Positions 1,462-55,038 of a DNA stretch of 56,642 nt are shown here, piece after piece. The notes under the pieces were generated by a model. The model saw only the letters and a program-made list of their open reading frames with translations, did no database searches and was not told the origin of the DNA. Origin of the DNA: Candidatus Paracaedibacteraceae bacterium (GTDB taxonomy: Bacteria > Pseudomonadota > Alphaproteobacteria > Paracaedibacterales > CAIULA01). Numbering within the stretch: the stretch's first letter is position 1; every line of letters begins with the position of its first letter. The stretch lies in contig DAHVSZ010000001.1 of assembly GCA_027328625.1 (NCBI GenBank), positions 1 through 56,642 of the forward strand, read 5' to 3'. The position numbers and the translations under genes are program-made.

Positions 1462-2253
1462 GTGATGCTATTTGCTTTGCCTTTTCCCTCTATCAATCCT
1501 GTCCTTTTCGAATTAGGACCGTTAAAGATCCATTGGTATGGAATTGCCTATGTTGTGGGAATTCTTCTTGGGTGGCGTTATGCCATTTATTTAGTTCGGC
1601 ATTATGCCACTCATTTAAAAGAACAGTATTTTGATGATTTTGTGACTTGGATTGTCGTTGGGATTGTTGTGGGTGGTCGACTTGGACATATTGTTATTTA
1701 TGAGTTCTCTCATTACATGCGTCACCCTTTAGAAATATTGATGACCTGGAAAGGCGGAATGTCTTTTTATGGGGGGCTTTTAGGGGTTATCATTTCAACC
1801 CTTATTTATTGTAAGCGTAAATCCATTAATCCTTTAGAATTTTCCGATGTAGTGGCGGCAGTTGTGCCAATTGGCTTAGGCCTTGGCAGGGTTGCAAATT
1901 TTATTAATGGTGAATTGTATGGCCGAGTTAGTGATGTACCATGGGCCGTTGAATTCCCGCAAGGTGGCGGTTTTCCAAGACATCCAAGCCAACTCTATGA
2001 GGCTTTTTTAGAAGGTTTTGTTTTGTGGTTGATTTTAGCATTTGCTTGGCACCGTACAAATTTGTATAAAACACCTGGAAAGATCACAGGGTTATTTTTG
2101 ATTGGGTATGCAGTATCACGTTTTTTGGTTGAATACGTGCGTGAGCCAGATTCAGTCTATCATTTAGCATCTTTTTCTTTTACGACTGGGCAGTTGTTGG
2201 CTTTGCCAATGATCGGGCTTGGGGCTTTTTGGTTGCGCTGTCGTAAAGCATGA
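1462..2253 (+). CDS. lgt: Prolipoprotein diacylglyceryl transferase
   Basis: Family-typical N-terminus FPSINPVLFELGPLKIHWYGIAYVVGILLGW, multiple TM segments, and GRVANFINGELYGR. Confidence 0.9.
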   Translation: MMLFALPFPSINPVLFELGPLKIHWYGIAYVVGILLGWRYAIYLVRHYATHLKEQYFDDFVTWIVVGIVVGGRLGHIVIYEFSHYMRHPLEILMTWKGGMSFYGGLLGVIISTLIYCKRKSINPLEFSDVVAAVVPIGLGLGRVANFINGELYGRVSDVPWAVEFPQGGGFPRHPSQLYEAFLEGFVLWLILAFAWHRTNLYKTPGKITGLFLIGYAVSRFLVEYVREPDSVYHLASFSFTTGQLLALPMIGLGAFWLRCRKA

Positions 2254-21888: not shown

Positions 21889-23292
21889 ATGACAAAAGTA
21901 TCTGTAGAACCTAAGCCCATTCCTTTAGAGGAAAAAAAAGCTTTAGGTATTGTTTTAACTGGCAATTTTTTAGAATATTTTGACTTAATGCTTTTTAGTC
22001 ATTTGGCTTTTGTCGTAGCACCTTATTTCATGCCAAAAACAGACCCACTTGTTGCAAAACTTTTAGCTATTTTGACTTTTTCCTCATCGTTTGTAATTCG
22101 ACCTTTTGCCGCTCTTTTCTGGGGATATATTGGCGATAACTTTGGTCGCGTTGTTGTCTTATCTTATACAACACTAATTATGGCGGTCACTTGTTTTCTA
22201 ATTCCCAACATTCCTCCTTATGCTGAAATAGGTATCTATTCAACAATTCTCATTATTGGTTGCAGAGTGTTGCAGGGATTTAGCTCAGCCGGTGAAGCAA
22301 AAGGCGCTGAAATTTTTGTAGCTGAAATTGTTCCTCATTTTCCTAAAATCTTTTTAGCATCTGCACTTGTTCCTATCACTTGTGATTTAGGAGGATTATT
22401 TGCTACGCTTCTTGGAAGTTTATGTCTCTCTTTTTCTGAAGAAGGGTGGAAGGTTTGCTTTTATATTGGTGCTGCAATTGCTTTTTGCTCATCAATTTCC
22501 CGTAAGAAACTTAGAGAAACAAAGGATTTTTTAAATTACTGTCGTGATAAAAAGAAATCTAAACCAACAGCAGTTCAACGCTTCTTTGAACGCCGCAATT
22601 TTCTCGCTCTTGTTGGACTTAACCTGATCTGTCCTACAGCTTTTTACTTTGCTTATAGTTTTGGTTCAGACTTATTAAAAGATACAGTTGGCCTTTCAGC
22701 AAATCTTATTTTATTTAATAATTCTGCCTTATTAATGATTGAAATTGTCTTTTTATTTGCTTGTGCACGTCTTGCTTATAAATATGATCCTTTTGATATT
22801 CTAAAGGTCAGAACTTATCTATCCTTTATTCTGATGCCATTAATGTTTGTCGTGTTATCTATGCAAACCAGTCACTTAACTGTTTTTCTAACGCAGTTGA
22901 TTGTTCTTTTATCAACAGCCAGCTTTGATCCAGCCACACCAGTTGTTATTCGTTCTTTTGGTATTCAAACAAGATTCTCTAGATATTCAAAAGCCTGGGC
23001 TTTTGCCAAAGCTTTAATGTACCTTTCAACCGGGTATCTGACGTTCTATTTCCATAGATGGTTTGGAATGTGGGGCATACTTGCTCTTTTGATGTTTTTC
23101 TCAACTATATTTTGCATATCTCTTTATGCGTTTGTTCCTTATTCGAAAATGTCTGAAACCTATGCCCGATTAAAAGGTGCAAAAGGTCACAAATGGTCTA
23201 TAAAAGAACAAGATTTAACAACAGATTATAGAATGGCTAAGCAAGAGCTTAGTTATTTACCATCACAATTAAAGAAATGGGTGGAGAAATAA
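21889..23292 (+). CDS. MFS transporter, ProP-like (osmolyte/metabolite:H+ symporter family)
   Basis: About 12 predicted TM segments, and N-terminus GNFLEYFDLMLFSHLA typical of the ProP-like MFS paralogs common in intracellular alphaproteobacteria. Confidence 0.7.
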   Translation: MTKVSVEPKPIPLEEKKALGIVLTGNFLEYFDLMLFSHLAFVVAPYFMPKTDPLVAKLLAILTFSSSFVIRPFAALFWGYIGDNFGRVVVLSYTTLIMAVTCFLIPNIPPYAEIGIYSTILIIGCRVLQGFSSAGEAKGAEIFVAEIVPHFPKIFLASALVPITCDLGGLFATLLGSLCLSFSEEGWKVCFYIGAAIAFCSSISRKKLRETKDFLNYCRDKKKSKPTAVQRFFERRNFLALVGLNLICPTAFYFAYSFGSDLLKDTVGLSANLILFNNSALLMIEIVFLFACARLAYKYDPFDILKVRTYLSFILMPLMFVVLSMQTSHLTVFLTQLIVLLSTASFDPATPVVIRSFGIQTRFSRYSKAWAFAKALMYLSTGYLTFYFHRWFGMWGILALLMFFSTIFCISLYAFVPYSKMSETYARLKGAKGHKWSIKEQDLTTDYRMAKQELSYLPSQLKKWVEK

Positions 23293-29094: not shown

Positions 29095-30633
29095 TTAAGC
29101 AGCTTTTTCTGATTTCTTTTGGCTGTCAACAAGATCTGTAAAACGCTTACCAAGGTTTGTTACAGCAAGGATCCAGATGAGACAGATAACAATCACAATT
29201 GGTCCTAAGATATAGGCTAAGCTTGCCAAGGAAACGCTTCCGCCGATAACAGCTAGCATGGTTGATTGGATAAACGCACCGCCGGATTTTCCTGCACGAC
29301 CACCAATAACTTCAACAGCTGCCTGACCTTTTACTTTTGCTTCAGGATCAAGTGGGATATAAGCCATTTGTTTTGTTGAGTCAAACAATGAGTATTTCGT
29401 TCCTTTGGAAAGAACGTTTTGTATTTGTCCAACAATCACAGCAACCATAACAACGGTTGTACCCAATATTGGTGTAAGTGGATCATGGGTTGCGCCTTGC
29501 CAAACGACTAGGTAGAAAATCGCTGACGTTACAAGAACCATAATTGGGGTGATAATTGCTGCTTTTAACCAGCTTAGACGACGTAAAATGTTGTTACCAA
29601 CAACCATTAACATAATGGTTACAACACCTGTCCAAGTGGAGAATTGTCCCATAAATGCGTTATAGTCATTCATATCTGGGAATGCGATTTTAATTTGGCC
29701 TTTCCAAACACCTTCAACCAAGTTAATAGCAATACCGTAAGCAAGTACGATAACAGCTATCAAACCAAGATATGGGTTACTAAGAATGTACTTAAAGCTT
29801 TCACCAACAGAGAGTTTTGCTTTTTTCTTTTTACCAGAGCCTTCACCAGGTTGATAAAGCTTTGGGTCTGTTAGAACATTTGTATTCATCCAACGATAAG
29901 TGATTGCAATAATAAGCCCTGCTACAACAACTGCACCCATCAAGAATTTCAAGTTTACACCGAAAGAGTCAACACCTTGCGGTAGAGATTTTGCATAACT
30001 AGCGCACATAATAATTGTTGGGCCAGAAAGAACCAAACCAATGTTACCAACCATACCAAATAAGCCATAAAAGCGCTTTGCTTCTGTTACTTTTGTGATT
30101 TCATTAGCAAACTGCCAGAAGAGCATTGAAAGAACCACGCTTCCCCATAATTCAGAGAGAATATAGAACAAGCTAAAGCTCCAGTTACCAATAACAGGAA
30201 CAAACCAGTGTGCATTTGGCCATGCTGCTTGATAAGCTTGAATGGTTTCCATGCTCATGTGTAACGCTTCTTTGTTGGGATAAATAACAAATGCAAATGC
30301 AGCAAAAAAGATCAAGAATGGCATCAAAATCGTATAAAATAATTTCTCACGTTCTAATATATTCGCAAGTTTAACGAATACAATCATAAACAAAATTGCT
30401 GCTGGAGTAACACCATAGAGCTTCAAAAAGCCTAAGCATTCAGCACCACCTGCAGGGGCATTGACCATAAGGGTGTCTTTTGTATCGCGTAAAATAGTGT
30501 AATTAAATAAGATGCAAAGCATCATGATGCCCATTGGCAAAAACTTTTTGAGCTCGTAGTTATGTACTGGCCAAAAAATGCCACGCAGGCCTGTAAATTC
30601 TTCTTTTGGTTTATCAGGGTTTTGACTACTCAT
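29095..30633 (-). CDS. tlc: ATP/ADP translocase (nucleotide transporter, NTT/Tlc family)
   Basis: 12-TM protein with the family-typical N-terminus LRGIFWPVHNYELKKFLPMGIMMLCILFNYTILRDTKDTLMV. Confidence 0.93.
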   Translation of the reverse strand: MSSQNPDKPKEEFTGLRGIFWPVHNYELKKFLPMGIMMLCILFNYTILRDTKDTLMVNAPAGGAECLGFLKLYGVTPAAILFMIVFVKLANILEREKLFYTILMPFLIFFAAFAFVIYPNKEALHMSMETIQAYQAAWPNAHWFVPVIGNWSFSLFYILSELWGSVVLSMLFWQFANEITKVTEAKRFYGLFGMVGNIGLVLSGPTIIMCASYAKSLPQGVDSFGVNLKFLMGAVVVAGLIIAITYRWMNTNVLTDPKLYQPGEGSGKKKKAKLSVGESFKYILSNPYLGLIAVIVLAYGIAINLVEGVWKGQIKIAFPDMNDYNAFMGQFSTWTGVVTIMLMVVGNNILRRLSWLKAAIITPIMVLVTSAIFYLVVWQGATHDPLTPILGTTVVMVAVIVGQIQNVLSKGTKYSLFDSTKQMAYIPLDPEAKVKGQAAVEVIGGRAGKSGGAFIQSTMLAVIGGSVSLASLAYILGPIVIVICLIWILAVTNLGKRFTDLVDSQKKSEKAA

Positions 30634-39419: not shown

Positions 39420-40754
39420 TTATCCAGGATATAAATCCATAGTCGCTATAGGAAGTTGGCTTAGAACAGCTTTAGCCGCTGCATGAACATTTTCTAAAGT
39501 AACAGCTTGAATATAGTCAGCCCATTTTTCAATTTGTTCAATTGTGAACCCACTAGAAAGACTTGTAAATACACTTAATGTGCTGTTATTTCCATCTCTA
39601 ATGAATGCGAGCTGTGCTAAAAGATCTCGTTTGGCTTTTCTGAGTTCTTCTTCAGAAACGCCTTTTTCTACAATATCTTTCAAATAATTAGCTAACGCTT
39701 GCTTAAAGATAGCAACATCCATATCTGGTGATAATGTCGCAGAAATTCCAAAAGGTCTAGGTTCATAACTATCTCCTTCATAACTGCTTCTAACGCTTAA
39801 AGCCAATTTTTTTTCTTCAACTAAAAGACGATAAAATTCGGTTGTGCTATTACCTCCCAAGATTTGAGACAAAACAATTAACGGGTAATAATGCTGAGTT
39901 TCACCAACTCGATGGTTGGGGGCAATGTAATACCAATTCAACATAATTAAAGAATTTCGAGGGTTTCTTTGTTCAATATGTTGAGTTATTCCTTGATGAG
40001 GAGGTTCAGCGAAACGCTGTCTTTTTGGAATTGGCCTGGAAGGTAGAGAGCCAAAATATTTCTCAACGATTGGTTTTACTTCTGCAAGATTTGTTTTCCC
40101 AGCAATGATAACAATTGCATTGTTGGGAGTATACCAAGTTTTGTAGTGATTTCTAACGGCTTCATATGAGTAGTTTTGAATATGATGAGGATATCCAATG
40201 GGCGGAATACCATAAGGGTGATACCAGCTCAAAGCTCTTAGTAAAACTTCATAAGCTTGGCCAAATGGATGATTTTCAACACGCATGCGTCGTTCTTCAA
40301 AGACAACATCCTTTTCTGATTTTATCTCTTCTTCTGTAAAGGAAAGATTGGCCATACGATCAGCTTCAAGCTTTAAAATAAGTTCCAAATATTCTTTTGC
40401 AATATCCGTTTCATAAATTGTGTAATCAAAGCTAGTGGCGGCATTGGTACTGCCTCCATGTTGCAAAATAATTTTTTTAAACTCTGATGTAGGGACATTT
40501 TTTGTTCCTTTAAACATCATATGCTCAAGAAAATGGGAGATGCCCATTAAGGGAAGAGGATCATCCGCTGTTCCAACTTTATATAAGATGCCAATGCTTA
40601 CAATGGGTGCTATATCATTTGGCACAACAATAATTTGAAGACCGTTTGGCAATGTATGAACTTCAGGATTGAAAATGCCAGCCATATTTTGTCCCATAAA
40701 AAAAGTTAAATAAACAATACAAAAACTAAAGAACTGTTTCATTCGAATTACCAA
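39420..40754 (-). CDS. M16 (pitrilysin) family zinc peptidase, catalytic subunit
   Basis: The inverted zinc motif HFLEHMMFKG is present. The signal-like N-terminus is MKQFFSFCIVYLTFF. The ATG at 40742 is the more likely start than the track TTG at 40754. Confidence 0.85.
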   Translation of the reverse strand: MVIRMKQFFSFCIVYLTFFMGQNMAGIFNPEVHTLPNGLQIIVVPNDIAPIVSIGILYKVGTADDPLPLMGISHFLEHMMFKGTKNVPTSEFKKIILQHGGSTNAATSFDYTIYETDIAKEYLELILKLEADRMANLSFTEEEIKSEKDVVFEERRMRVENHPFGQAYEVLLRALSWYHPYGIPPIGYPHHIQNYSYEAVRNHYKTWYTPNNAIVIIAGKTNLAEVKPIVEKYFGSLPSRPIPKRQRFAEPPHQGITQHIEQRNPRNSLIMLNWYYIAPNHRVGETQHYYPLIVLSQILGGNSTTEFYRLLVEEKKLALSVRSSYEGDSYEPRPFGISATLSPDMDVAIFKQALANYLKDIVEKGVSEEELRKAKRDLLAQLAFIRDGNNSTLSVFTSLSSGFTIEQIEKWADYIQAVTLENVHAAAKAVLSQLPIATMDLYPG

Positions 40755-40785: not shown

Positions 40786-40874
40786 TTTTCTTCCGACTCG
40801 ATCGGAAGATCCATGAGATTAAATCCCAATCGAAAACAAATACATGGACCCTATGGTCAAACCATAGGGAAACT
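40786..40874. repeat. S-variant hairpin (cttccga-ctcga-tcggaag) plus P hairpin (ccctatgg-tcaaa-ccataggg), intercistronic
   Basis: Read directly in the 139-bp gap between the two co-oriented M16 peptidase genes. Confidence 0.75.
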
Positions 40875-40893: not shown

Positions 40894-42291
40894 TCATTTT
40901 GCATCCGCTTTAGATTCAGAGCGACCTACAATAATGAATGTTAAAAGTTCTGGATGAAGAATCTTTTTAATCACTTGATTAACATTCTCAACCGTTAGTT
41001 TGCTAAAATAAAGATTTCGTTTTTCAACATAATCAATGGGTAAACTATCTTGTCTATAACGTGATAGTGCATTAACTGTCTCTAGGGTTGAACCAAATGA
41101 CAAAGGAAATGAACCCATGATGTTTTTTTTGTGAAAATCCAATTCTTCTTGAGTAACACCTTTTTCAATTAGCTTTTTCCATTCTTGTTTTATGACTGCA
41201 AGAGTTTCTTCCAAGCTCTCTGTCTTTGTAGCGGTCGCTCCAATCATTCCATTCGCTAAATCATTGGTGAATAAATCAAGATTACAGAAATAAGCAAGTC
41301 CTCGCTTTTCTCTAATTTCATTCCAAAGCCGTGATTCAAAATTCCCACTTCCTAAAATTCTTACTGCTAAGAATAAGGCATAAAAGTCAGGGTCTTGTCT
41401 GCTTATTCCTGGGTGAGCAAAGAAAATTAAACTTTGTGGAATGTCTAGATATACATTAAATATTTTACCTAAATTCTTAAGCTCAGTTGGTTGTGGAAGA
41501 GTTGTAGGCTCTCCTTTCGGTAGATCTGCTAAGCTTTTTTCAAGAAATTCGATAAGCTTTTCAGTATTAATATTTCCGCAGGCAACAATTTCTAAATTAG
41601 CTTGTGTAAAGTTCTTTTTCATTTGAGCTCGCAACTGCTCAGCTTGAATCGTTGGAATAACTTTAATACGTTCAGACGTTCTTTTAAAATAAGGGTGTGT
41701 TTCACCTAAAAGGTGTTTTTGTAATTCTTCTTTTGCAATTGGCTGTGGGTGATGAAGTGATTGTTGTAATCCCGCAATCATTTGTTGTTTAACGCGTTGC
41801 ATGTCTTCGTCTGAAAATCGTGGGGAAGACAAAATAAGTTTTATGAGTTCTAAAGCATCATTCACATTCTCTTTAACAGTGCGAAAAGTGATTGTAAAAT
41901 TATCTTGTGAGGAAGAAACAGATAGACTGATGTTCTTTTCAAGTAATAATTTCTTAAAGGATTGGCTATCATAAGGGCCTGCGCCTTCATCTAAAAGAGC
42001 CGCAATTAAATCTGTTAAACCAGGAAAATCAGAAGGCGAGCTTCTATCTCCTGCATTTCTAAAAGTAAGAGCCATACTCACAACAGGAATACTTGTTGGT
42101 ACAAACCAAATAGATTTTCCAAGGTTTGTCTTAAGCTCTTTTACGGAAATCGGAGATGTTGTCATAGAATCCTGCGTATGTGATATTGGGTGTTTAGTCG
42201 TGGTTTTTAGCCATGATTTATTTGAAAAGCTTACAAACAACGCTAAAGCTATTCCACAAAGCCCTCCTAGTAATAAAATCCTTTTTTTCAT
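40894..42291 (-). CDS. M16 family peptidase-like protein, non-catalytic partner (no HxxEH motif)
   Basis: It has M16 N and C domain-like length and layout plus a signal or anchor segment. The zinc motif is absent from the translated sequence. Confidence 0.75.
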   Translation of the reverse strand: MKKRILLLGGLCGIALALFVSFSNKSWLKTTTKHPISHTQDSMTTSPISVKELKTNLGKSIWFVPTSIPVVSMALTFRNAGDRSSPSDFPGLTDLIAALLDEGAGPYDSQSFKKLLLEKNISLSVSSSQDNFTITFRTVKENVNDALELIKLILSSPRFSDEDMQRVKQQMIAGLQQSLHHPQPIAKEELQKHLLGETHPYFKRTSERIKVIPTIQAEQLRAQMKKNFTQANLEIVACGNINTEKLIEFLEKSLADLPKGEPTTLPQPTELKNLGKIFNVYLDIPQSLIFFAHPGISRQDPDFYALFLAVRILGSGNFESRLWNEIREKRGLAYFCNLDLFTNDLANGMIGATATKTESLEETLAVIKQEWKKLIEKGVTQEELDFHKKNIMGSFPLSFGSTLETVNALSRYRQDSLPIDYVEKRNLYFSKLTVENVNQVIKKILHPELLTFIIVGRSESKADAK

Positions 42292-42821
42292 TAATTCGTT
42301 TTTTGCTCATTCACTGTAGCACTGGTCTGAGAAGGCTGCTGTTCACCGTTGATAGAGGCAATATTTTTTGCAGCTTCCTCTCTCCACCCCATAATTCGTT
42401 GGATAAGTGAATCAGACACATTTGTTGCAACAGCAGCTTCTTTGTTGACTGTATCACGTATATTAGGGGAAGCTTTCTGTTGTGAACTTGCCATCGACAA
42501 AAGTGATTGTTCACCTTCATCTTTAGAAGTCTCAGTTGATGCTGATGTTCCTAATAAAAGATTTTGGGCTTGAGCTTGTGAAGATCCAGTTGTACTTACT
42601 GTTGAGGTAGTCTGACTATTACTTTGACCTTCCAAAGGCGGCCTCAATTTATAATCTTTTGGAATGCTGAGAGGAGGGTTATCAGATACCTTAAATTCAT
42701 CTGGTTGATAATGATCTAAACCAAAAGTATTGCGAAAACTATCACATCCGCTCAAAAAAGTAAGGCAAGCCCCTAATGTAGTTAGCGATAAAATTTTGTT
42801 GAAAGAAGTATCCATAGTCAT
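42291..42821 (-). CDS. DUF3035-type lipoprotein
   Basis: The lipobox is LTFLSGC. DHYQPDEFKVSDNPPLSIPKDYKLRPP follows. The position between lspA and the M16 pair is common in alphaproteobacteria. Confidence 0.6.
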   Translation of the reverse strand: MTMDTSFNKILSLTTLGACLTFLSGCDSFRNTFGLDHYQPDEFKVSDNPPLSIPKDYKLRPPLEGQSNSQTTSTVSTTGSSQAQAQNLLLGTSASTETSKDEGEQSLLSMASSQQKASPNIRDTVNKEAAVATNVSDSLIQRIMGWREEAAKNIASINGEQQPSQTSATVNEQKTN

Positions 42822-42824
42822 AAC

Positions 42825-43310
42825 TTAAGTTACCTGTTTGTTTTTTACAAAATGCCATGCTTGTTGTAATAAAATCAAGCCTACTCCAATTGTTATTGCA
42901 CTGTCTGCAATATTAAACACAGGAAAGCTATAATTTAATAAGTGAAAATGCAAAAAGTCGATTACAGCGCCGTGATAAATACGATCGACAATATTGCCAA
43001 TCGCACCTCCTATAATAAGTCCATAGCTAATGGATTCAATCTTTGATTGCACTTTCCACAAACAAATGAATAACCATGAAACAAGAACAGAAGCCAATAA
43101 CAAAAGAGCAGCTTTTCCAGAAAAACTATCTGCAGGAAAGAGACCAAAACTGATTCCTCTGTTATAAGTTAGTGAAAAATCAAAGAATCCTGTTACTGTG
43201 ATAATATCAGGTGGATAAATGTTATTAATAATAACGTATTTAGAAAGCTGATCTAGTAGTCCTATTAAAGGGATAGTAACAAGTCCAACTTTTCTCAATT
43301 GATTAGCCAT
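42825..43310 (-). CDS. lspA: Lipoprotein signal peptidase (signal peptidase II)
   Basis: DQLSKYVI, NRGISFG, GGAIGNIVDR and FNIADSAITIG motifs. Confidence 0.9.
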   Translation of the reverse strand: MANQLRKVGLVTIPLIGLLDQLSKYVIINNIYPPDIITVTGFFDFSLTYNRGISFGLFPADSFSGKAALLLLASVLVSWLFICLWKVQSKIESISYGLIIGGAIGNIVDRIYHGAVIDFLHFHLLNYSFPVFNIADSAITIGVGLILLQQAWHFVKNKQVT

Positions 43311-45302: not shown

Positions 45303-46343
45303 TTATCTTAATGATTGATTTAGAGTGATTTTGATTGAAGGATTATCCGTTTGAATTTTGTCACACTTTAGCCAACTATTGTAGCCGAGTGCAAATTTTC
45401 GATTAAGCATGACAGGTTTGATATCGAAACGATTAAGTTTCAAACGCAAATGAATTTGGGTATTCATTCCGATAAAAAAATAACTTAGTTCCTTTAATAA
45501 TGAAAAAGTTGTTACAACATTAGATGATGCAGGTGTTGGTAAAAATGAACAATATTCATTCCATGATAATGGGCCAATCGCGATACTAGCAGCCGCAGTT
45601 TGATCCCAACATTTTTTGCCCAAAATCATATTTTTTCCTAATTCATTAAATTGTCCTTTTTTAGAACCAATTTTACTTAGGTCATGCGCATGCGCTTCAC
45701 GCCAAGCCCCTTCAAACTGTTCAATAACGACGGGAACATTAAAATAACTTTTGATAAGTCTTAATAACCCTGCGCCTGAATGTGGTCTTTTCCAGATAAT
45801 ATCGTGATAGCTCATTAATATTTGAGGACTAATCTTTAAACCTTGAAGCAAATTAGGGTGAGCAATGCCAGCAATTTGAAGTAAAGTCTTTCCTATAGGA
45901 GCATCTTGAGGAGGGGCTTGCAAAACACCAGGCATAATTTTCTTGCGAAGACGGTGCCAGAACGTTGCTAAGCGATGATTAAAAATATCTAGAAAATCCC
46001 GAAACCCTGTGTCTTTTTGTCTTGTTCTATCAATGACAGTTTCTGTATATGGAGTTGGCAGAGGGCCTTGTATTCCAGCAATACTTAGAAAGTTGATCCA
46101 TAATATTGGTTTTTGGTCTGGTTCTTGTTGCAGAGATTGAAGTTCACTTGTTGGGATAGCAAAGCTTACATGTGATTTTATTTGAATCGCTTCATTTTGA
46201 GGATCAGTTTCACTGCCCAAAGGAGTGGCGCCAGGATCTAACTGTTCTAATATGTTAATCGCTTGATCAAAGTCAAATTCCTGTGGGGATTTTAATAATC
46301 CTTCTTTTACAGGAGGATTTTCTCGCCAGGTAATGGTTGCCAT
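45303..46343 (-). CDS. tssG: Type VI secretion system baseplate subunit TssG (ImpH/VasB family)
   Basis: LLKSPQEFDFDQAINILEQ, FLSIAGIQGPLPTPYTE and FRDFLDIFNHRLATFWHRL match the family signature segments as I recall them. Confidence 0.8.
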   Translation of the reverse strand: MATITWRENPPVKEGLLKSPQEFDFDQAINILEQLDPGATPLGSETDPQNEAIQIKSHVSFAIPTSELQSLQQEPDQKPILWINFLSIAGIQGPLPTPYTETVIDRTRQKDTGFRDFLDIFNHRLATFWHRLRKKIMPGVLQAPPQDAPIGKTLLQIAGIAHPNLLQGLKISPQILMSYHDIIWKRPHSGAGLLRLIKSYFNVPVVIEQFEGAWREAHAHDLSKIGSKKGQFNELGKNMILGKKCWDQTAAASIAIGPLSWNEYCSFLPTPASSNVVTTFSLLKELSYFFIGMNTQIHLRLKLNRFDIKPVMLNRKFALGYNSWLKCDKIQTDNPSIKITLNQSLR

Positions 46344-48136
46344 TTTATATACTCATTTGGTCTATCAGTTTTTATCATTACAAGCTCAACAAAAGAATTT
46401 AAGGAAACACTTAATGCAAAATAATGTCGTAATACAGATGCTAATAGGAAATTAGAATTTCCGGTTTCTGACAATGTTTCCATTTCCATGACAATTTGAA
46501 TTCCTTCGACAAATCCTCTCCATGCTTCAAGGCCAAATCTCCTCACAATTTTGTTTGTTTTGAGAGATTTTATATTATCAATTTCATGTTGTTTGTATGT
46601 GTGAGTTGATCCTGAATAGAGTTTTAAACTCTCCTTTAAAATGTTGAGAGCTTCTTTATTTCCTGTTAACGGAAGGTGATTGACCGAAAGCTGTGAGATA
46701 AGGCGCCATAATGTTTCACCATCTGCTGGAGAATATTCTTGGGGAACAGGCTTATCTAGACATACAATTTTACTGATTGGAACCGCTTCTTCAATTTGCA
46801 ATTCGGCACCTTGTGGTAATTGTTCTGCTAAAAATCTATTGGTACATAAGGTATGAGCGTAAACAATCTGATGAGGGGGTAAAGCTGGGTTAAATTGTAA
46901 GTCTACAAAAGACAGATATACATCTGTACCAGGTAAATCACGTTCTTCAGCAGAAGTTCTTTTTGCTGTCCAATATACAGTATCTTTTAAAGATATATGC
47001 TGATGATTAAAAGAAAAATACGGTGAAAAAGTTTGTGGTTCTTGATTTCCTTCAACAGCGGCAGCCACTTTCAGAATCCGATATATTTCTGTTGTTTTGT
47101 CACGCCGTTGGTCCGGCACAAGTCGGTAACGGATTTTTCTTTTTGTTAAACGTTGTGGTTCAGTAATTTTTTTAAACAAATTAACAATAGGTGTACATCC
47201 TAGCAAAAAGTTATTAGGGCTTAGTTTTTTTTGCAAAATTTCTTGTACACCTTTTAATGAAATCAAAAGTTCAAATACATTTGTATCTAAATTTAAATTG
47301 TCAGGAAGTTTGTTCAAATGCTTTATCTTGAAGAAAAGAAATTTTTCTGGTAGGTGAAAATATTCTTGTAGCAATTGATATGCATGCGTTGAGTATTCAG
47401 GAATAGGAAGAGTCATTTCATCTCTATTAAACCCGATAGGTGTGAGCGAATCATCGGGAAGAGTATGTGCTGTTTGACCATCAACAGAAACATAAACCGA
47501 AGGATGAACTTGAGAAAATAGGCTTTCATATATATCCAAGCTTAAAATGCGTTCGCCTCTAATATGAAATTGTAATTCATCTAGATTGAGAGCACCTAGT
47601 GATGCCCCTTGAGTTTCAATTGTGAGACGTAAAAACCAGTTGTCATCTTTACTTTTTCCAACCAAGGTGAATGCATCTTTTGGAACAATGGCAACTTTTT
47701 TAAGTTTTATAGGCCATAACGTTAGAGGATAAATAGTTTGGAAACGACAAGAGACATCTTTTTCAGAGTAAGCAAATAGTGGTGTTTCTTTTGGAATATT
47801 ATAGCCCTTTGTTAGTTTTCCTTTTGTTGGATCCACTTGGAATTGGGCAATAGACATGGAAGGAATTGGGTTCACAAGATGTGGATAAAGAACTTCGAGT
47901 AATGCTGCAGCAGTTTCAGGAAATCTATCATCAATTTCCTGGCTTAAGCGAGCCGTCATGAAAGCAAATGATTCCAATAAGCGTTCCGTATGAGGGTCAG
48001 GGGATTCCTTTTCGCTTAATTCTAGTCGGCGAGCAATTTTAGGATGTTGCTTGGCGAAAATTTTTCCTGAATTTCGAAGATATCGAAGCTCATTATTGTA
48101 GTAATTTAGGAACCGATCGCGTGCATTTCGAAACAA
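46307..48136 (-). CDS. tssF: Type VI secretion system baseplate subunit TssF (ImpG/VasA family)
   Basis: RFLNYYNNELRYLRNSGKIFAKQHPKIARRLEL, DPHTERLLESFAFMTARL and LLEVLYPHLVNPIPSM match the family. TTG start with ggag 9 nt upstream. The 3' end overlaps tssG by 37 nt. Confidence 0.85.
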   Translation of the reverse strand: MFRNARDRFLNYYNNELRYLRNSGKIFAKQHPKIARRLELSEKESPDPHTERLLESFAFMTARLSQEIDDRFPETAAALLEVLYPHLVNPIPSMSIAQFQVDPTKGKLTKGYNIPKETPLFAYSEKDVSCRFQTIYPLTLWPIKLKKVAIVPKDAFTLVGKSKDDNWFLRLTIETQGASLGALNLDELQFHIRGERILSLDIYESLFSQVHPSVYVSVDGQTAHTLPDDSLTPIGFNRDEMTLPIPEYSTHAYQLLQEYFHLPEKFLFFKIKHLNKLPDNLNLDTNVFELLISLKGVQEILQKKLSPNNFLLGCTPIVNLFKKITEPQRLTKRKIRYRLVPDQRRDKTTEIYRILKVAAAVEGNQEPQTFSPYFSFNHQHISLKDTVYWTAKRTSAEERDLPGTDVYLSFVDLQFNPALPPHQIVYAHTLCTNRFLAEQLPQGAELQIEEAVPISKIVCLDKPVPQEYSPADGETLWRLISQLSVNHLPLTGNKEALNILKESLKLYSGSTHTYKQHEIDNIKSLKTNKIVRRFGLEAWRGFVEGIQIVMEMETLSETGNSNFLLASVLRHYFALSVSLNSFVELVMIKTDRPNEYIKWQPLPGEKILL

Positions 48137-49026: not shown

Positions 49027-49746
49027 TTACAAATCTTTCCATGGGGCAGGGAAATTTTGTCCCATTTCAATTTGATCTTGATGAAAGAAAGACATATCAT
49101 TACTTTCAGTAGAGGAGGGAAATTGTTCGTCTCCTTCTTCACCATAGTCGTTTACTATTTCATTCTCTTGTTCAGCAATTTCTAACTCAATCTCATGAAT
49201 CAGAGCGGGATCTGGCCGAGGACCAACAGTCGTATTTGTTAAGTAAATGAGCGCATCAGAATATCCGTTCATAAGAGCTTGAATAGCGGCGTTGTCAACT
49301 CCATCTTGATTTGGGTGAGGAATATCCTCGACACTGTGATGAACAACATAATCTAGTAAATTCAAATCACCGTAACTTGCAGCTTCAACAAGTAGGCTGT
49401 TGATGCCCTCTTGATCTAAATAAGGAAGAATATATTTAACAATCCCAAGATCACCAAAATGGGCAGCATAAGTTGCAGCCAAATTGATTCCTTCTTGATC
49501 AGGATGCAATGCCTTTTTGTTCTTATGTTCCATAACGGCTTTTAATGTTTTTATATGGCCATTTCCTGCAGCTGTTTCTGCAACATTATTGACTTCATCT
49601 TGATTTGCTTCCGGTAAGAGTTTTAAAACTGTCTTTGTTTTTCCCAAAAGAGCAGCCTCGTGGATACGATGGCTCAAAGAGTCTGCAAAAACTTCTTTTT
49701 CTTGAAACAACAGAATAAATAACACGGAAATTAAGTATTTAACCAT
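49027..49746 (-). CDS. Secreted ankyrin-repeat-like protein with an acidic C-terminus
   Basis: The signal peptide is MVKYLISVLFILLF. Four ANK-like units read AAGNGHIKTLKAVMEH, AAHFGDLGIVKYIL, AASYGDLNLLDYVVHH and ALMNGYSDALIYL. Confidence 0.5.
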   Translation of the reverse strand: MVKYLISVLFILLFQEKEVFADSLSHRIHEAALLGKTKTVLKLLPEANQDEVNNVAETAAGNGHIKTLKAVMEHKNKKALHPDQEGINLAATYAAHFGDLGIVKYILPYLDQEGINSLLVEAASYGDLNLLDYVVHHSVEDIPHPNQDGVDNAAIQALMNGYSDALIYLTNTTVGPRPDPALIHEIELEIAEQENEIVNDYGEEGDEQFPSSTESNDMSFFHQDQIEMGQNFPAPWKDL

Positions 49747-52745: not shown

Positions 52746-52800
52746 ATATATTTTTAAATAAAAAGAAGTTGGACTAGTTATAGCAAGGTTTAATGTCTCT

Positions 52801-53008
52801 GTCATCCTTGGGCTTGCCTCACTGTTGTTTGAACATTGAACAGCAACTTCGTTCCATAGTTTTCCTCCGGCTTGACCGGAGGATCCATAACGAAGAATCT
52901 TGGTGTTTGAAGCATGGACCCTATGGTCAAGCCATAGGGAAACTGAGATGAGTTAAGTTTTTTGTTCAACGCTCAAACATTAGTGGGCTTGACTTCTACA
53001 AGGATGAC
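52801..53008. mobile_element. Composite: a TIR-bounded S-P element (52820-52985) sitting inside a split G-type palindrome
   Basis: The outer arms are gtcatccttg (52801-52810) and caaggatgac (52999-53008). The inner 22-nt arms are cactgttgtttgaacattgaac and gttcaacgctcaaacattagtg, complementary at 18 of 22 positions by hand count. The S hairpin lies at 52860-52886 and the P hairpin at 52916-52944. Confidence 0.6.
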
Positions 53009-53072
53009 AGCCGTTAGTTTGTTAGTATTTCAGTGATACTTGGTACTATATTTCCTTTTTTCTTTACCACTT

Positions 53073-53099
53073 GTCATCCTCGGGCTTGACCCGAGGATC
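53073..53099. repeat. Intact G-type hairpin gtc-atcctcggg-cttga-cccgaggat-c
   Basis: Read directly: a perfect 9-bp stem with a 5-nt loop. Confidence 0.85.
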
Positions 53100-53268
53100 T
53101 AAAAAACATAGTTGATGGCAATGGGGGGCTTGAAAGAACTTTATTATAAAATAATTCATATACAGTAAATTTTGTATGTAGACATAAATCTAAATAAGTC
53201 GTAAATTTCATCATGCTTTATTTAGAAATTAAAATAAAAAATGGCTGAAAGGAGCCGATATAAATAAA

Positions 53269-54927
53269 ATGAATAAAATTTTAAGAAATACAATACTCAG
53301 TCTTTGTTTGACCAGTTGCCTGGCGATGGGGATGGATGATGGGGATGGCGGTGCGGTTGTTGAACCAGCGACACGACCTGCGACAGCGACGACGGATGCA
53401 CGTCTGCCCACCGAAGAACTCAGAAGGAACGCTGCTGTTGTGCCTGTTGAAGTTGTGCCAGGAAGGTGGTTTGGGAAAGCTAAATTTAAGGGTCCTAATG
53501 GAGATATGCAGTATCAAAACACTGACAACCTTCTTATGGCATTCGGATGCGCTCTCGGCCAAGCAGGAGTTCTTGAAAAAGCAGTAAAAGAAGAAAGACA
53601 ACGAACAGATGTTCTTGCAGCAACAAACCAGATATTGAATAATGACCTAAGAGGGGTTACAGCGCAACTTGCTGCTGCAAAGGAAGAAGGCAAATCACAA
53701 ACTCAAAGACTACAAGATTTAGCAGACCGTTTAGCAGGGACAGAAACTGCTCTCGAAAAACAAAGGAAAGCTACCATAGATGCTATGTGGATTTCTTCTA
53801 CTATCGAGAGAGAGCTTGCCCTGGCAAAACAAAAAGAAGAAGATCTGGAAAGACGGCTTACAGCTGCAAATTTGGAAAATGAATCGAGGCTAAGAGATTT
53901 AACAGCTCGTTTGGAAGCGACAGAAAGAGCTCTTGAGGAACAAAGGAGACAGGCTGCCGCAGCTACTGAGACTACTTCCGATGTCAAACAAGCCCTTGCT
54001 TTGGCCGCACAGAGAGAAAAAACTTTAGAAGAGCAATTGTTAATAGCAAGGAGTGCCGCTGAAGTAAGATTACAAGAACTAAGGGAATTAAGCACAACTC
54101 TCACGAGCACATTAAGTGAACTTGCATCAACAAGGTCAGCTGCTGGAACCAACCAAAGACTGGTAGATATGATGAGAGAAGAGGCTGGAGTAAAAGAACA
54201 ATTATTGGGTTCTTTGAAAGAAAGATTGCTTCAATTCCAACGACAGCTACGTGTGGTGGTCACAAGTGATCATCCTGTTGAGGATTTAGATTCAGCACGT
54301 AAGTTTGTTGTGGGTGAATATCAAAAAGAGAAAGACGCTTTAGAGAGAGAGCTTGCGGCTCAGCGTGGTACTCTTTTACAAGCGCGAGAAGAACACAAAC
54401 GCTTGACAAAACAACGTGGAGAAAGCACTTCCTCGAATTTAGAAGAACTTATTGCACAAGCAGCTACCAGAATCCAACGCCTGCAAGCAGATGTTGAAAC
54501 AAAAGAGAGACACTTGAGTACTTTGACAACTGAGAAAACAGAGCTTGAGAGAGAAATAGAAGCTCTAGAGACAAAATCGGTGGGTGATTTTATAAAGGCT
54601 GTGCGAGCTGATAAGTTACTAGAATTAAAGGCATTTGAACAGTTTTCGGAGCTTGCGCGAAGAGGACATAATCATAGGTGGGCACATGGTGCAGGCTTAA
54701 GTAAGGGATCGCAATGGTTAGGTGAAGAACTTGTGAGAAAAATGGGCAAAGATGCAGCGTTACAGCTGTTGACTACTGGAGGTCTTTCGAGAGAAATGGC
54801 TGAATGGTTTATTTCTGATGACTCACAAGAGGCCATTCGTGATCACGGAAAAGGAACACTTGTTGGAACTAAAGCGGCGGATGAAGCTAATTGGACGAAA
54901 CTCAAAGCACGTTTTGGTGTTGCTTAA
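53269..54927 (+). CDS. Coiled-coil lipoprotein-like protein with 60-aa tandem repeats; compositionally atypical
   Basis: The N-terminus MNKILRNTILSLCLTSC carries an LTSC lipobox. Long heptad-like E/R/L/A/Q-rich sequence follows. Repeats lie at 53707-53886 and 53887-54066. I recognise no family. Confidence 0.6.
   Translation: MNKILRNTILSLCLTSCLAMGMDDGDGGAVVEPATRPATATTDARLPTEELRRNAAVVPVEVVPGRWFGKAKFKGPNGDMQYQNTDNLLMAFGCALGQAGVLEKAVKEERQRTDVLAATNQILNNDLRGVTAQLAAAKEEGKSQTQRLQDLADRLAGTETALEKQRKATIDAMWISSTIERELALAKQKEEDLERRLTAANLENESRLRDLTARLEATERALEEQRRQAAAATETTSDVKQALALAAQREKTLEEQLLIARSAAEVRLQELRELSTTLTSTLSELASTRSAAGTNQRLVDMMREEAGVKEQLLGSLKERLLQFQRQLRVVVTSDHPVEDLDSARKFVVGEYQKEKDALERELAAQRGTLLQAREEHKRLTKQRGESTSSNLEELIAQAATRIQRLQADVETKERHLSTLTTEKTELEREIEALETKSVGDFIKAVRADKLLELKAFEQFSELARRGHNHRWAHGAGLSKGSQWLGEELVRKMGKDAALQLLTTGGLSREMAEWFISDDSQEAIRDHGKGTLVGTKAADEANWTKLKARFGVA
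53707..54066 (+). repeat. Two full 180-bp (60-codon) tandem repeats inside the coiled-coil gene, with a partial third starting at 54067
   Basis: Unit 1 is RLQDLADRLAGTETALEKQRK...LENES. Unit 2 is RLRDLTARLEATERALEEQRR...SAAEV. RLQELREL... follows. Confidence 0.7.
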
Positions 54928-54945
54928 GTTTTTCCTGCTCCATTC

Positions 54946-55038
54946 AGTTTCCCTATGGCTTGACCATAGGGTCCATTCTTCAACTTTCGTTTTGGTAAAA
55001 GTACACTCTGGATCCTCCGGTTAAGCCGGAGGAAAACT
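54946..55038. repeat. P hairpin (54946-54974) and S hairpin (55010-55038), both in reverse orientation
   Basis: agtttccctatgg-cttga-ccatagggtcc ... ggatcctccgg-ttaag-ccggaggaaaact. The S copy overlaps the last codons and the stop of gene 55021..56262. Confidence 0.8.

What the first reader, a model, noticed from the sequence alone, without database searches (positions are those of the whole stretch)
53269..54927. Compositionally foreign coiled-coil lipoprotein gene with 180-bp tandem repeats, bracketed by palindromic elements
Hand counts of 60-nt lines give 39/60 G+C (53341-53400) and 32/60 (53941-54000) in this gene, against 18/60 in a typical line of the MFS gene (21961-22020). The stop-poor composition also produces long antisense ORFs. 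The product has a lipobox (LTSC), an Ala/Pro/Thr-rich linker, about 350 aa of heptad-like coiled coil including two exact-period 60-aa repeats, and an unassignable C-terminal domain (…HNHRWAHGAGLSKGSQWLGEEL…). Composite repeats flank it on both sides (52801-53099 and 54946-55038). Taken together this suggests a horizontally acquired surface or effector protein delivered or shuffled with the repeat elements. It is a candidate eukaryote-like coiled-coil effector.
Basis: partly seen in the sequence, partly recalled or inferred. Interest (0 to 1): 0.65.

Follow-up and report, generated by a model that had tools for sequence, protein, structure and literature searches.

The report
Orphan coiled-coil lipoprotein, native not foreign
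This is a real, fast-evolving gene for an exported coiled-coil lipoprotein with an unclassifiable end domain, found only in a few uncultured intracellular alphaproteobacteria; it is native rather than imported, its flanking palindromes are ordinary genome-wide repeats, and a sister strain has deleted it.

Summary
The ORF 53269-54927 encodes 552 aa: a signal peptide with lipobox LTSC, a low-complexity linker, about 340 aa of heptad-periodic helix with one 60-aa duplication, and a 116-aa helical C-terminal head. The head matches nothing in Pfam, NCBIfam, PHROGs, PADLOC or the PDB. The "foreign" reading fails. The high G+C (0.440) is predicted from the amino-acid composition using the window's own codon usage (0.436). 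GC3 and synonymous codon usage are native. A 50%-identical ortholog sits at the same locus, beside the same symporter gene, in another alphaproteobacterial MAG. The "180-bp tandem repeat" is an old duplication (40% aa and 55% nt identity); the ortholog has one unit. The flanking elements are REP/REPIN-like hairpin doublets found at 9 intergenic sites in the window, and they also bracket other genes. A strain about 98% identical to the ortholog's genome carries a clean 1278-nt in-frame deletion of the gene, so it is dispensable. The most likely reading is a lineage-specific, envelope-anchored accessory lipoprotein, with a stalk and a conserved head, in an energy-parasitic intracellular bacterium. 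The ligand is unknown. Nothing supports a eukaryote-like effector.

The parts
52798..53014 (.). Nested palindromic repeat of about 215 nt. Outer arms are TGTCATCCTTG...CAAGGATGACA. It encloses the REPIN-like doublet at 52858-52946, which is hairpin A CCTCCGGCTTGACCGGAGG, a spacer, and inverted hairpin B CCTATGGTCAAGCCATAGG.
   Evidence: Inverted and direct repeats. Alignment of four doublets. DNA fold -48.5 kcal/mol, z -8.2. Doublet RNA fold -40.7 kcal/mol, z -5.0.
53072..53099 (.). Single REP-like hairpin, type C (TGTCATCCTCGGGCTTGACCCGAGGATC). The GGGCTTGACCCGAGG core is conserved at the equivalent position upstream of the ortholog.
   Evidence: Fold -15.8 kcal/mol, z -4.4. Alignment with L001.
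53167..53207 (+). Promoter-like region: TAGACA, 17 nt, TAAATT. It contains the motif AAATTTTGTATnTAGACA, which is the only well-conserved upstream block between the two species.
   Evidence: Consensus scan (a weak match, 9 of 12). Conservation. Function is inferred.
53249..53254 (+). Shine-Dalgarno-like AAGGAG, 14 nt before the ATG.
   Evidence: Read directly.
53269..54927 (+). Coding sequence for the 552-aa orphan coiled-coil lipoprotein (P0001).
   Evidence: Purifying selection against the ortholog, dN/dS 0.32.
53269..53319 (+). Signal peptide with lipobox LTSC (Cys17). The first 23 residues are identical in the ortholog despite at least 5 synonymous changes.
53320..53553 (+). Low-complexity, probably disordered linker (aa 18-95), the G+C-richest part of the gene. 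It is the fastest-evolving region (35% identity, dN/dS 0.55) and contains a hexanucleotide micro-repeat at 53321-53348.
   Evidence: (pLDDT below 50).
53554..54576 (+). Heptad-periodic alpha-helical stalk (aa 96-436) with predicted breaks near aa 230-235, 333-335 and 384-388.
53683..53862 (+). 60-aa repeat unit 1 (aa 139-198).
53863..54042 (+). 60-aa repeat unit 2 (aa 199-258). A stretch of exactly this length is absent from the ortholog P0002.
54577..54924 (+). Conserved all-helical C-terminal head (aa 437-552). It carries HNHRWAH and DHGKG motifs and belongs to no known family.
54944..55038 (.). REPIN-like doublet in the opposite orientation to the upstream one, between the convergent target and symporter genes. 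Its last 18 nt supply the final codons (SFPPA*) of the symporter ORF.
   Evidence: RNA fold -46.1 kcal/mol on either strand, z -5.0 and -5.3. Symporter C-termini compared.

Best explanation
The gene is a native, vertically inherited but fast-evolving accessory gene of an uncultured, energy-parasitic (TLC-bearing) intracellular alphaproteobacterium. Its product is exported by Sec. Lgt then lipidates Cys17 and LspA cleaves the leader. The mature protein is anchored by its N-terminal lipid in the envelope. With Leu at +2 rather than Asp, the enterobacterial rule predicts the outer membrane. From the anchor run a flexible linker and a long segmented coiled-coil stalk that carries a small, conserved helical head. 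The head is the functional, ligand-binding end. The linker and stalk act as a spacer that tolerates rapid substitution and gain or loss of a 60-aa module. I infer, but have not shown, that the head is displayed towards the host, in the manner of an adhesin or host-contact protein. The flanking palindromes are ordinary REP/REPIN-like intergenic elements of this genome. The 3' doublet most likely serves as a hairpin barrier or stabiliser between two convergent transcripts. The elements neither brought the gene in nor mark it as special. Shown: gene reality, native composition, orthology and synteny, repeat architecture, orphan status, and the deletion allele. Inferred: lipidation, outer-membrane or surface location, the binding role of the head, and the role of the REP hairpins.
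For: Native composition: GC3 0.298 against 0.273 +/- 0.042; G+C expected from the amino acids 0.436 against 0.440 observed; codon-usage z 1.7. Vertical inheritance: the only full-length relative (P0002, 50% identity) lies at the same place, next to the convergent SDF gene, which is 84% identical. The upstream motif, the type-C hairpin and a REPIN doublet are also present upstream in the sister lineage. Functional gene: dN/dS is 0.32 overall, and the signal peptide is 23/23 identical despite synonymous changes. Export and lipidation: lipobox match; Lgt (4e-76) and LspA (2e-36) in the window. Stalk: heptad score about 6.6 sd above shuffles and long helices with pLDDT 70-90. Head as the functional end: 71-76% identity against 35% in the linker and 44-67% in the stalk. 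Accessory and dispensable: a strain 97.8% identical to the ortholog's genome has a 1278-nt in-frame deletion between AGTAA(T)AATGA microhomologies, leaving a 60-codon remnant; it is seen in at least 6 assemblies. Host-associated lifestyle: TLC translocase 2e-203, ankyrin protein, TssF/TssG. Repeats are generic: 13 hairpins against 0.03 expected, all intergenic; word depth 15-31 times that of the gene; four doublets equally alike.
Against: No experiment or homology supports any specific function. The head has no detectable relative of known function, and its AlphaFold2 model is unreliable (pLDDT 58). The lipobox fails the strict PROSITE-type pattern at position -4 (Cys13), and an SPase I site after Ala19 is conceivable. 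Outer-membrane sorting rules are not established for Alphaproteobacteria. If fully extended, a stalk of about 340 aa (about 50 nm) would not fit a periplasm, but a fold-back hairpin would, so periplasmic location is not excluded. Faster evolution and loss in one strain are also compatible with a gene of decaying importance. Expression evidence is a single 221-nt contig in one run that is only guessed to be RNA.
Confidence: 0.55

Rival explanations
1. The protein is a periplasmic envelope protein. It is anchored as a lipoprotein, and its coiled coil folds back into an antiparallel hairpin that spans the periplasm. It positions the head on the peptidoglycan or on an inner-membrane partner, acting as a tether, ruler or regulator in the manner of Lpp, LpoB or EnvC.
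For: It combines a lipobox, a linker, a stalk and a small head. Predicted helix 85-229 (145 aa) equals helices 236-332 plus 336-383 (145 aa). The 60 aa missing from the ortholog straddle the predicted turn at 230-235, as expected for trimming a hairpin tip. The window also holds the dcw-cluster gene mraW and an AmiD-like amidase, so envelope functions are nearby, but not in the same operon.
Against: No LytM, LysM, OmpA, SPOR or PG_binding domain is detectable. The protein evolves about three times faster in dN than its neighbour. It is cleanly deleted in a natural strain. The hairpin is a reading of a low-confidence model (pTM 0.29) and could not be checked.
Confidence: 0.25
2. The protein is not a lipoprotein. 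The leader is cut by signal peptidase I after Ala19, and the protein is released as a soluble periplasmic or secreted coiled-coil protein.
For: The h-region is short. Cys13 at position -4 violates the strict lipobox pattern. S-C-L-A|M is an acceptable AXA-like site (read directly).
Against: LTSC fits [LVI][ASTVI][GAS]C. A DUF3035 protein beside lspA, which the same regex also picks out as a candidate lipoprotein, has a similar leader. All 23 N-terminal residues, including Cys17, are invariant between species that are 50% identical overall.
Confidence: 0.12
3. This is the first reader's model: a horizontally acquired, eukaryote-like coiled-coil effector that was delivered or shuffled by the flanking repeat elements.
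For: The gene has the highest G+C in the window. Inverted near-identical repeat arms bracket it. Synteny upstream of the gene differs between lineages. The bacterium is host-associated.
Against: The G+C is fully explained by amino-acid content. GC3 and codon usage are native. An ortholog lies at the same locus. The repeats are genome-wide and bracket other genes too. No tRNA and, among the ORFs scanned against Pfam, no integrase or transposase. Nothing eukaryotic or otherwise reaches significance. The Sec/lipobox leader is atypical for translocated effectors.
Confidence: 0.04
4. The protein is a polymorphic-toxin-like protein. The leader and stalk deliver a C-terminal toxin head, following a weak lead to an ADP-ribosyl cyclase toxin.
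For: The architecture (leader, filamentous stalk, C-terminal domain of about 115 aa) resembles polymorphic toxins. phmmer gave a hit to PDB 9ro8_A at E = 1.3. The head has a His-rich motif, HNHRWAH.
Against: The hit is not significant. It disappears in the profile search and in the fold search. The head is the conserved part, not the variable part. No immunity-type ORF follows; the convergent symporter gene starts 94 nt downstream.
Confidence: 0.04

Closest known systems
REP / BIME / REPIN elements of Proteobacteria (REPINs as defined in PMC3337134 and PMC3116915). This comparison concerns the flanking repeats.
   Same: The elements are short imperfect palindromes of about 20-30 nt. They are strictly extragenic, multi-copy, and frequently occur as inverted doublets with a variable spacer that fold into one long hairpin. 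They persist at the same locus in a sister species.
   Different: The hairpin sequence family (GGCTTGACC core) is not a described one. No RAYT transposase gene is in the window. Some copies are nested inside a longer 215-nt palindrome. One copy contributes the last codons of a gene, as Rickettsia palindromic elements do (that comparison is from my own knowledge).
Braun's lipoprotein Lpp and other coiled-coil envelope lipoproteins
   Same: An N-terminal lipobox anchor is followed by an alpha-helical coiled coil.
   Different: Lpp is 58 aa and ends in the peptidoglycan-linking Lys. This protein is 552 aa, has a disordered linker and a separate head, ends in FGVA, and shows no sequence similarity.
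LpoB / LpoA (outer-membrane lipoprotein activators of PBPs) and EnvC/LdpF-type coiled-coil regulators of peptidoglycan hydrolases
   Same: The layout matches: anchor or leader, a long spacer, and a small C-terminal effector domain that must reach a distant partner.
   Different: There is no LytM/M23, LpoB or TPR domain. The head is all-helical. The Lpo proteins are restricted to Gammaproteobacteria (from my own knowledge). No membership is claimed.
Fibrillar surface proteins with variable coiled-coil stalks (streptococcal M proteins, stalks of trimeric autotransporter adhesins)
   Same: The stalk is heptad-periodic with internal repeat modules whose number differs between lineages. The exposed or spacer regions diverge fast while the functional end is conserved.
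   Different: The anchoring differs: a lipid anchor at the N-terminus rather than LPXTG or a C-terminal beta-barrel. There is no sequence homology, and surface exposure is untested.
Eukaryote-like coiled-coil effectors of Legionella and Coxiella (for example the LegC family)
   Same: A coiled-coil-rich protein in a host-dependent bacterium.
   Different: Those effectors are Dot/Icm substrates without a cleavable Sec or lipobox leader (from my own knowledge). Here a lipobox is present and no eukaryotic similarity is detectable.

Membership tests
Bacterial lipoprotein (substrate of Lgt, LspA and Lnt) | Positively charged n-region, uncharged h-region, and lipobox [LVI][ASTVI][GAS]C with the Cys at about position 15-35 | tested here: met
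   The leader is MNKILRNTILSLCLTSC. It has K3 and R6, no charged residue in positions 7-16, and L-T-S-C17.
Bacterial lipoprotein (substrate of Lgt, LspA and Lnt) | Strict PROSITE-type pattern, which requires [LIVMFWSTAG] at positions -3 and -4 (pattern recalled from memory) | tested here: inconclusive
   Position -4 is Cys13, which is outside the allowed set. All other positions fit (sequence).
Bacterial lipoprotein (substrate of Lgt, LspA and Lnt) | The processing enzymes are present in the organism | tested here: met
   Lgt at 1462-2253 (PF01790, 4.3e-76) and LspA at 42825-43310 (PF01252, 2.2e-36).
Bacterial lipoprotein (substrate of Lgt, LspA and Lnt) | Actual lipid modification and cleavage before Cys17 | not testable with these tools
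   This needs labelling, globomycin treatment or mass spectrometry.
Coiled-coil protein | Sustained heptad (a/d hydrophobic) periodicity in long helices | tested here: met
   Heptad score 0.409 against 0.244 +/- 0.025 in shuffles. Helices of 145, 97, 48 and 58 residues.
Coiled-coil protein | Oligomeric state and strand orientation | not testable with these tools
   Only a low-confidence monomer model is available (pTM 0.29).
REP/REPIN elements | Short imperfect palindromes, extragenic and in many copies | tested here: met
   13 matches against 0.03 expected, at 9 intergenic sites (one search compared with the ORF table). Word depth 15-31 times that of the gene.
REP/REPIN elements | [quoted passage not shown] | tested here: met
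   Four doublets with spacers of about 0-46 nt. Folds of -41 to -46 kcal/mol, z about -5.
REP/REPIN elements | A cognate RAYT (Y1 transposase) gene in the genome | not testable with these tools
   None among the window ORFs scanned. The rest of the genome is not available.
Horizontally acquired island | Third-position G+C or synonymous codon usage deviates from the host genome | tested here: not met
   GC3 z is about 0.6. Codon-usage z is 1.7. Expected G+C 0.436 against 0.440 observed. The caveat is that the reference is 56 kb, not the whole genome.
Horizontally acquired island | Absent from the same locus in relatives, or flanked by a tRNA, an integrase or direct repeats | tested here: not met
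   An ortholog lies at the same locus. No tRNA and, among the ORFs scanned against Pfam, no mobility gene. The flanking repeats are inverted and genome-wide.
Eukaryote-like effector | Significant similarity to a eukaryotic protein or domain | tested here: not met
   Only the protein itself and one bacterial ortholog reach E<=1e-3 among 5.8 billion clusters. Pfam and NCBIfam hits are sub-threshold coiled-coil noise.
Polymorphic toxin | Variable C-terminal toxin domain followed by an immunity gene | tested here: not met
   The head is the conserved part. No ORF follows before the convergent symporter gene. The 9ro8 lead (E = 1.3) was not reproduced.
EnvC/NlpD-type LytM factors | C-terminal Peptidase_M23 (LytM) domain | tested here: not met
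   No Pfam match even at E<=10. The head is predicted to be all-helical.

The most novel reading that the evidence does not exclude
The conserved 116-aa helical head (HNHRWAH...DHGKG) is a new fold or domain family. An obligate intracellular alphaproteobacterium displays it on a stalk of variable length to bind a host or envelope ligand, or to act on it through its clustered histidines. This would make it a new class of lipid-anchored host-contact protein, and its natural presence/deletion polymorphism would reflect host-driven selection.
Probability: 0.15. Interest if true: 0.55.

Novelty: new variant of a known kind. Interest (0 to 1): 0.27.

Why it matters
As it stands this is mainly a cautionary result. 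In an AT-rich genome, a gene rich in Ala, Glu, Arg, Gly and Leu looks foreign by raw G+C although its codon usage is native. Being bracketed by palindromes means little when the genome is peppered with REPIN-like elements. What remains is a genuine orphan family: three loci in two species-level lineages, out of about 15 billion public proteins. It has a conserved head of unknown fold, and its owner appears to be a protist- or host-dependent, ATP-scavenging alphaproteobacterium. The natural in-frame deletion allele in a sister strain offers a ready-made comparison for anyone who can link these MAGs to a host. The locus also documents a REPIN-like family in an intracellular alphaproteobacterium, including a copy that supplies a gene's last codons.

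Tried and rejected
(1) Tandem Repeats Finder at minimum score 30 found no 180-nt array. The repeat is visible only as a 61-nt, 77% core and at protein level.

(2) Pfam, NCBIfam, PHROGs and PADLOC on the whole protein gave only sub-threshold coiled-coil matches: Phosphodiest, ZapB, SMC, PbeC, LmuB and DndD. They gave nothing for the head.

(3) An exhaustive phmmer search of the head against 1.84 billion representatives found only the protein itself, the 60-aa remnant P0003, and P0004. P0004 is a repetitive protein whose 'NPWFVQNDSSHAITIQGN' units match WFISDDSQEAIRDHGKG six times. I treat it as spurious.

(4) The PDB sequence search gave 9ro8 (ADP-ribosyl cyclase toxin) at E = 1.3. The profile search gave short-chain dehydrogenases at E about 0.5, partly aligned to their His-tags. 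I rejected both.

(5) AlphaFold2 on the full length (pLDDT 56) and on the head (pLDDT 58), followed by Foldseek against the PDB, gave nothing below E = 1.

(6) Two scans of JGI metagenome contigs with head peptides found no relative. The genome scan found only the known MAG.

(7) Rfam at gathering thresholds and ARAGORN found nothing in the window.

(8) A 'joint' 52944->54946 in run X1 is another locus with head-to-head hairpins, not a deletion of the gene. The two flanking copies are inverted, so they could not produce such a deletion.

(9) I tried to decide whether the 60-aa duplication predates the species split. Each unit is closer to the ortholog's single unit (scores 137 and 115) than to the other unit (105). 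This fits a duplication in the window lineage but does not prove it.

(10) A literature search for comparable coiled-coil lipoproteins in such endosymbionts returned nothing.
Full report
OBSERVATION. The ORF 53269-54927 (+) is real and encodes 552 aa. Of 944 sixty-nucleotide lines, only 15 reach 32 G+C and only 2 reach 39.

The product begins MNKILRNTILSLCLTSC. It has K3 and R6, an uncharged stretch, and a lipobox L-T-S-C17. Next comes a linker rich in Ala, Gly, Val, Asp, Pro and Thr (aa 18-95). Residues 96-436 are rich in Leu, Glu, Ala and Arg, and residues 437-552 form the tail.

Heptad periodicity over residues 96-440 scores 0.409. Composition-matched shuffles give 0.244 +/- 0.025, with a maximum of 0.339. 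AlphaFold2 predicts helices 85-229, 236-332, 336-383 and 389-446, with pLDDT 70-90 in much of them. The overall model is poor (mean pLDDT 56, pTM 0.29).

A self-comparison gives one outstanding offset, exactly 60 aa. The best 50-residue window scores 101, against 38.1 +/- 5.6 (maximum 59) in shuffles. The units are aa 139-198 and 199-258.

The two units share only 24/60 residues and 55% of nucleotides, rising to 77% over a 61-nt core. Tandem Repeats Finder reports no 180-nt array. This is an old internal duplication, not an active tandem repeat.

COMPOSITION IS NOT FOREIGN. Across 46 ORFs of the window, G+C is 0.382 +/- 0.024, so the target is about 2.4 sd high. The excess lies in codon positions 1 and 2 (0.586 and 0.436). 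GC3 is 0.298 against 0.273 +/- 0.042.

If the protein's amino acids are encoded with the synonymous usage of the other 45 ORFs, the expected G+C is 0.436. The observed value is 0.440. Its synonymous-usage deviation (B 0.222, expected 0.181, z 1.7) is unremarkable. By comparison, uvrA has z 4.5, the symporter gene 4.0 and the TLC gene 6.6. The long antisense ORFs are by-products of this composition and are not conserved in the ortholog.

RELATIVES AND LOCUS HISTORY. A search of 5.8 billion protein clusters returned only the protein itself and one relative, P0002 (487 aa, 50% identity, full coverage). P0002 comes from the MAG 'Alphaproteobacteria bacterium RH-23may17-736' (GCA_947475175.1).

P0002 lies at the same locus. 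It converges on the same 413-aa SDF-family symporter gene, which is 84% identical between the two genomes. The alignment shows three things:
- The first 23 residues are identical.
- A gap of exactly one 60-aa unit is present in P0002.
- The tail is well conserved.

Nei-Gojobori estimates were as follows:
- Signal peptide: no amino-acid change, with at least 5 synonymous changes.
- Linker: 35% identity, dN/dS 0.55.
- Stalk: 44-67% identity, dN/dS 0.20-0.40.
- Head: 71-76% identity.
- Whole gene: dN 0.315, dN/dS 0.32.
- Symporter neighbour: dN 0.10, dN/dS 0.05.

The gene is therefore functional and under purifying selection. Its dN is about three times that of its neighbour.

Upstream, the only well-conserved block is AAATTTTGTATnTAGACA, which overlaps a promoter-like TAGACA-17-TAAATT. 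A GGGCTTGACCCGAGG hairpin core is also conserved.

A third lineage is L008 (GCA_945896995.1), with five further assemblies showing the same structure. It is 97.8% identical in DNA to the P0002 contig over 4.4 kb. It lacks 1278 nt (426 codons, in frame) of the gene. The deletion joins the ribosome-binding region to an internal Met through the microhomology AGTAA(T)AATGA. This leaves a 60-codon remnant, P0003, without a signal peptide. The gene is thus dispensable in nature and polymorphic within a species-level group.

Upstream synteny differs between lineages. The window has uvrA, an ankyrin-repeat gene, an OMP gene and tssF/tssG. L008 has dnaB and an unknown 415-aa secreted protein. Only the symporter side is shared. 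The synteny breakpoint coincides with the REP-rich 524-nt spacer.

THE FLANKING REPEATS. The motif CCTMBGGCTTGACCVKAGG occurs 13 times in the window, against 0.03 expected. Compared with the ORF table, all copies fall in intergenic spacers, at 9 of roughly 27 spacers. One apparent exception, at 35674, lies in what is probably an N-terminal over-extension of the asd ORF.

Four sites are doublets: 27356/27406, 37515/37545, 52864/52920 and, inverted, 54952/55014. Each doublet is one 'A' hairpin (CCTCCGG...CCGGAGG) and one inverted 'B' hairpin (CCTATGG...CCATAGG), with a spacer of about 0-46 nt. The hairpin modules are nearly identical in all four, so the two copies around the target are not a special pair.

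The doublets fold into long hairpins of -41 to -46 kcal/mol, z about -5. The upstream doublet is nested in a 215-nt palindrome with z -8.2. In the source metagenomes, the elements' word depth is 15-31 times that of the gene, and assemblies break at them.

The genes at 38170-38913 and 39420-40754 are bracketed in the same way. In L008, the only two matches in 17.5 kb form a doublet about 420-500 nt upstream of this same locus. The upstream element is therefore probably as old as the species split. This is the REP/BIME/REPIN pattern: two inverted REPs with a spacer (PMC3337134, PMC3116915).

No RAYT gene, no tRNA, and no integrase or transposase was found: the tRNA scan covered the whole window, and the gene scans covered the ORFs that were checked against Pfam. 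The last 18 nt of the 3' doublet encode the final residues (SFPPA*) of the symporter. The ortholog instead ends in a different repeat-derived ...VIPA.

THE HEAD DOMAIN. Residues 437-552 gave no hit in any family library:
- Pfam, even at E<=10.
- NCBIfam.
- PHROGs.
- PADLOC.

The PDB sequence search gave only E = 1.3 to an ADP-ribosyl cyclase toxin. The PDB profile search gave E about 0.5 to dehydrogenases, partly aligned to their expression tags. An exhaustive HMMER search of 1.84 billion representatives found only the protein itself, the 60-aa remnant, and a spurious repeat protein. Two scans of metagenome contigs found nothing.

AlphaFold2 predicts an all-helical domain at low confidence (pLDDT 58). 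Foldseek finds nothing below E = 1. 'Unassignable' is therefore confirmed. It is a new small domain family with two or three known members.

ORGANISM. The window also encodes:
- A TLC ATP/ADP translocase (2e-203).
- An ankyrin-repeat protein (above the Pfam threshold).
- TssF and TssG.
- A PilB-like ATPase and a prepilin peptidase.
- Lgt and LspA.

The DNA is found in mine-drainage metagenomes. This is the gene set of a host-dependent, energy-parasitic alphaproteobacterium. The lipoprotein maturation pathway is present.

MECHANISM (shown versus inferred). Shown:
- The gene is conserved and under selection.
- The product has a Sec-type leader with a lipobox.
- A long heptad-periodic helical region contains one module duplication.
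- The C-terminal head is conserved.
- Composition is native.
- Synteny is conserved on one side.
- A natural deletion allele exists.

Inferred:
- Lgt and LspA process the protein at Cys17.
- The protein sorts to the outer membrane. Leu at +2 rather than Asp predicts this under the enterobacterial rule, which is unverified for Alphaproteobacteria.
- The stalk acts as a spacer and the head as the ligand-binding end.
- The head faces the host.

The main rival places the protein in the periplasm as a fold-back hairpin. This rival is encouraged by the equal predicted arm lengths (145 and 145 aa) around a turn at 230-235, which lies inside the segment missing from the ortholog. That reading rests on a low-confidence model. 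Models based on horizontal transfer, a eukaryote-like effector or a polymorphic toxin each fail at least one defining feature that was tested.

VERDICT. The interpretation (foreign, repeat-delivered, eukaryote-like effector) is not supported. What remains is an orphan, accessory coiled-coil lipoprotein with an unknown head domain. It is of moderate-to-low interest unless the head proves to be a new host-interaction module.

Noticed in passing
L008:9960-10183 (GCA_945896995.1 contig CAMDEO010000009.1), compared with L001:280-1743: A strain 97.8% identical to the ortholog-bearing MAG has a 1278-nt in-frame deletion of the gene between AGTAA(T)AATGA microhomologies. It keeps the promoter and ribosome-binding region, and a 60-codon remnant without a signal peptide. 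The same structure occurs in at least 5 further assemblies.
   Followed up: yes
window 29095-30633 (-): A TLC ATP/ADP translocase (PF03219, E 2e-203), a hallmark of energy-parasitic intracellular bacteria. It has the most deviant synonymous codon usage of the window (z 6.6), which could reflect high expression or foreign origin.
   Followed up: partly
window 55021-55038 (-), 3' end of the SDF symporter ORF: The last codons of the symporter (…SFPPA*) are supplied by the REP hairpin. The ortholog ends …SVIPA* inside a different palindromic repeat. Repeat insertions have rewritten the C-terminus.
   Followed up: partly
window 52746-52805 (-): The longest uvrA ORF runs 20 codons into the repeat element. 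The conserved UvrA sequence begins at the Met at 52745 ([16 protein letters not shown]), so the extension is probably not translated.
   Followed up: no
window 52746-53268, compared with L008:8213-10000: Synteny breaks exactly in the REP-rich spacer upstream of the gene. The window has uvrA, an ankyrin-repeat gene, an OMP gene and tssF/tssG; the sister lineage has dnaB and an unknown 415-aa secreted protein. Only the symporter side is shared.
   Followed up: partly
window 42291-42821 (-) and 42825-43310 (-); 1462-2253 (+): A second lipobox protein (DUF3035, leader …LTFLSGC) lies directly beside lspA. Lgt is also encoded in the window.
   Followed up: partly
window 45303-48136 (-) and 49027-49746 (-): The type VI secretion baseplate genes tssG and tssF are followed, after an OMP gene, by an ankyrin-repeat protein. 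No other T6SS core genes were seen among the ORFs scanned in the window.
   Followed up: no
window 53269-53337 and 54577-54924, compared with L001: Synonymous divergence from the ortholog is lower in the signal-peptide region (dS 0.39) and the head (dS 0.5-0.6) than in the stalk (1.2) or the neighbouring symporter gene (1.9). This could reflect constraint at the nucleotide level or more recent exchange of the gene's ends. It is unexplained.
   Followed up: no
window 53553-53773: One run guessed to be RNA (X5, 'organism A', 2024) holds a 221-nt contig identical to this part of the gene, and no true match to the other 20 kb examined. This is a thin hint of transcription or of the bacterium's presence in that organism's sample.
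   Followed up: partly
window 53321-53348: A hexanucleotide micro-repeat (TGGGGA, about 4.5 copies) encodes MGMDDGDGG just after the lipobox. It could vary in length in frame, and the ortholog differs here.
   Followed up: no
window 37515-37563, 39336-39354 and 40850-40868: The REP hairpins also bracket trmD (38170-38913) and an M16 peptidase gene (39420-40754). Being flanked by these elements is common in this genome.
   Followed up: yes
L001:1745-1870 and L008:10185-10292: Downstream of the ortholog there is a different palindromic repeat family (…GTCATCCCCGAGAGGGC…GGATTCCCGCCTACGCGGGAATGAC…). The sister species therefore carries other REP-like families at the homologous site.
   Followed up: no
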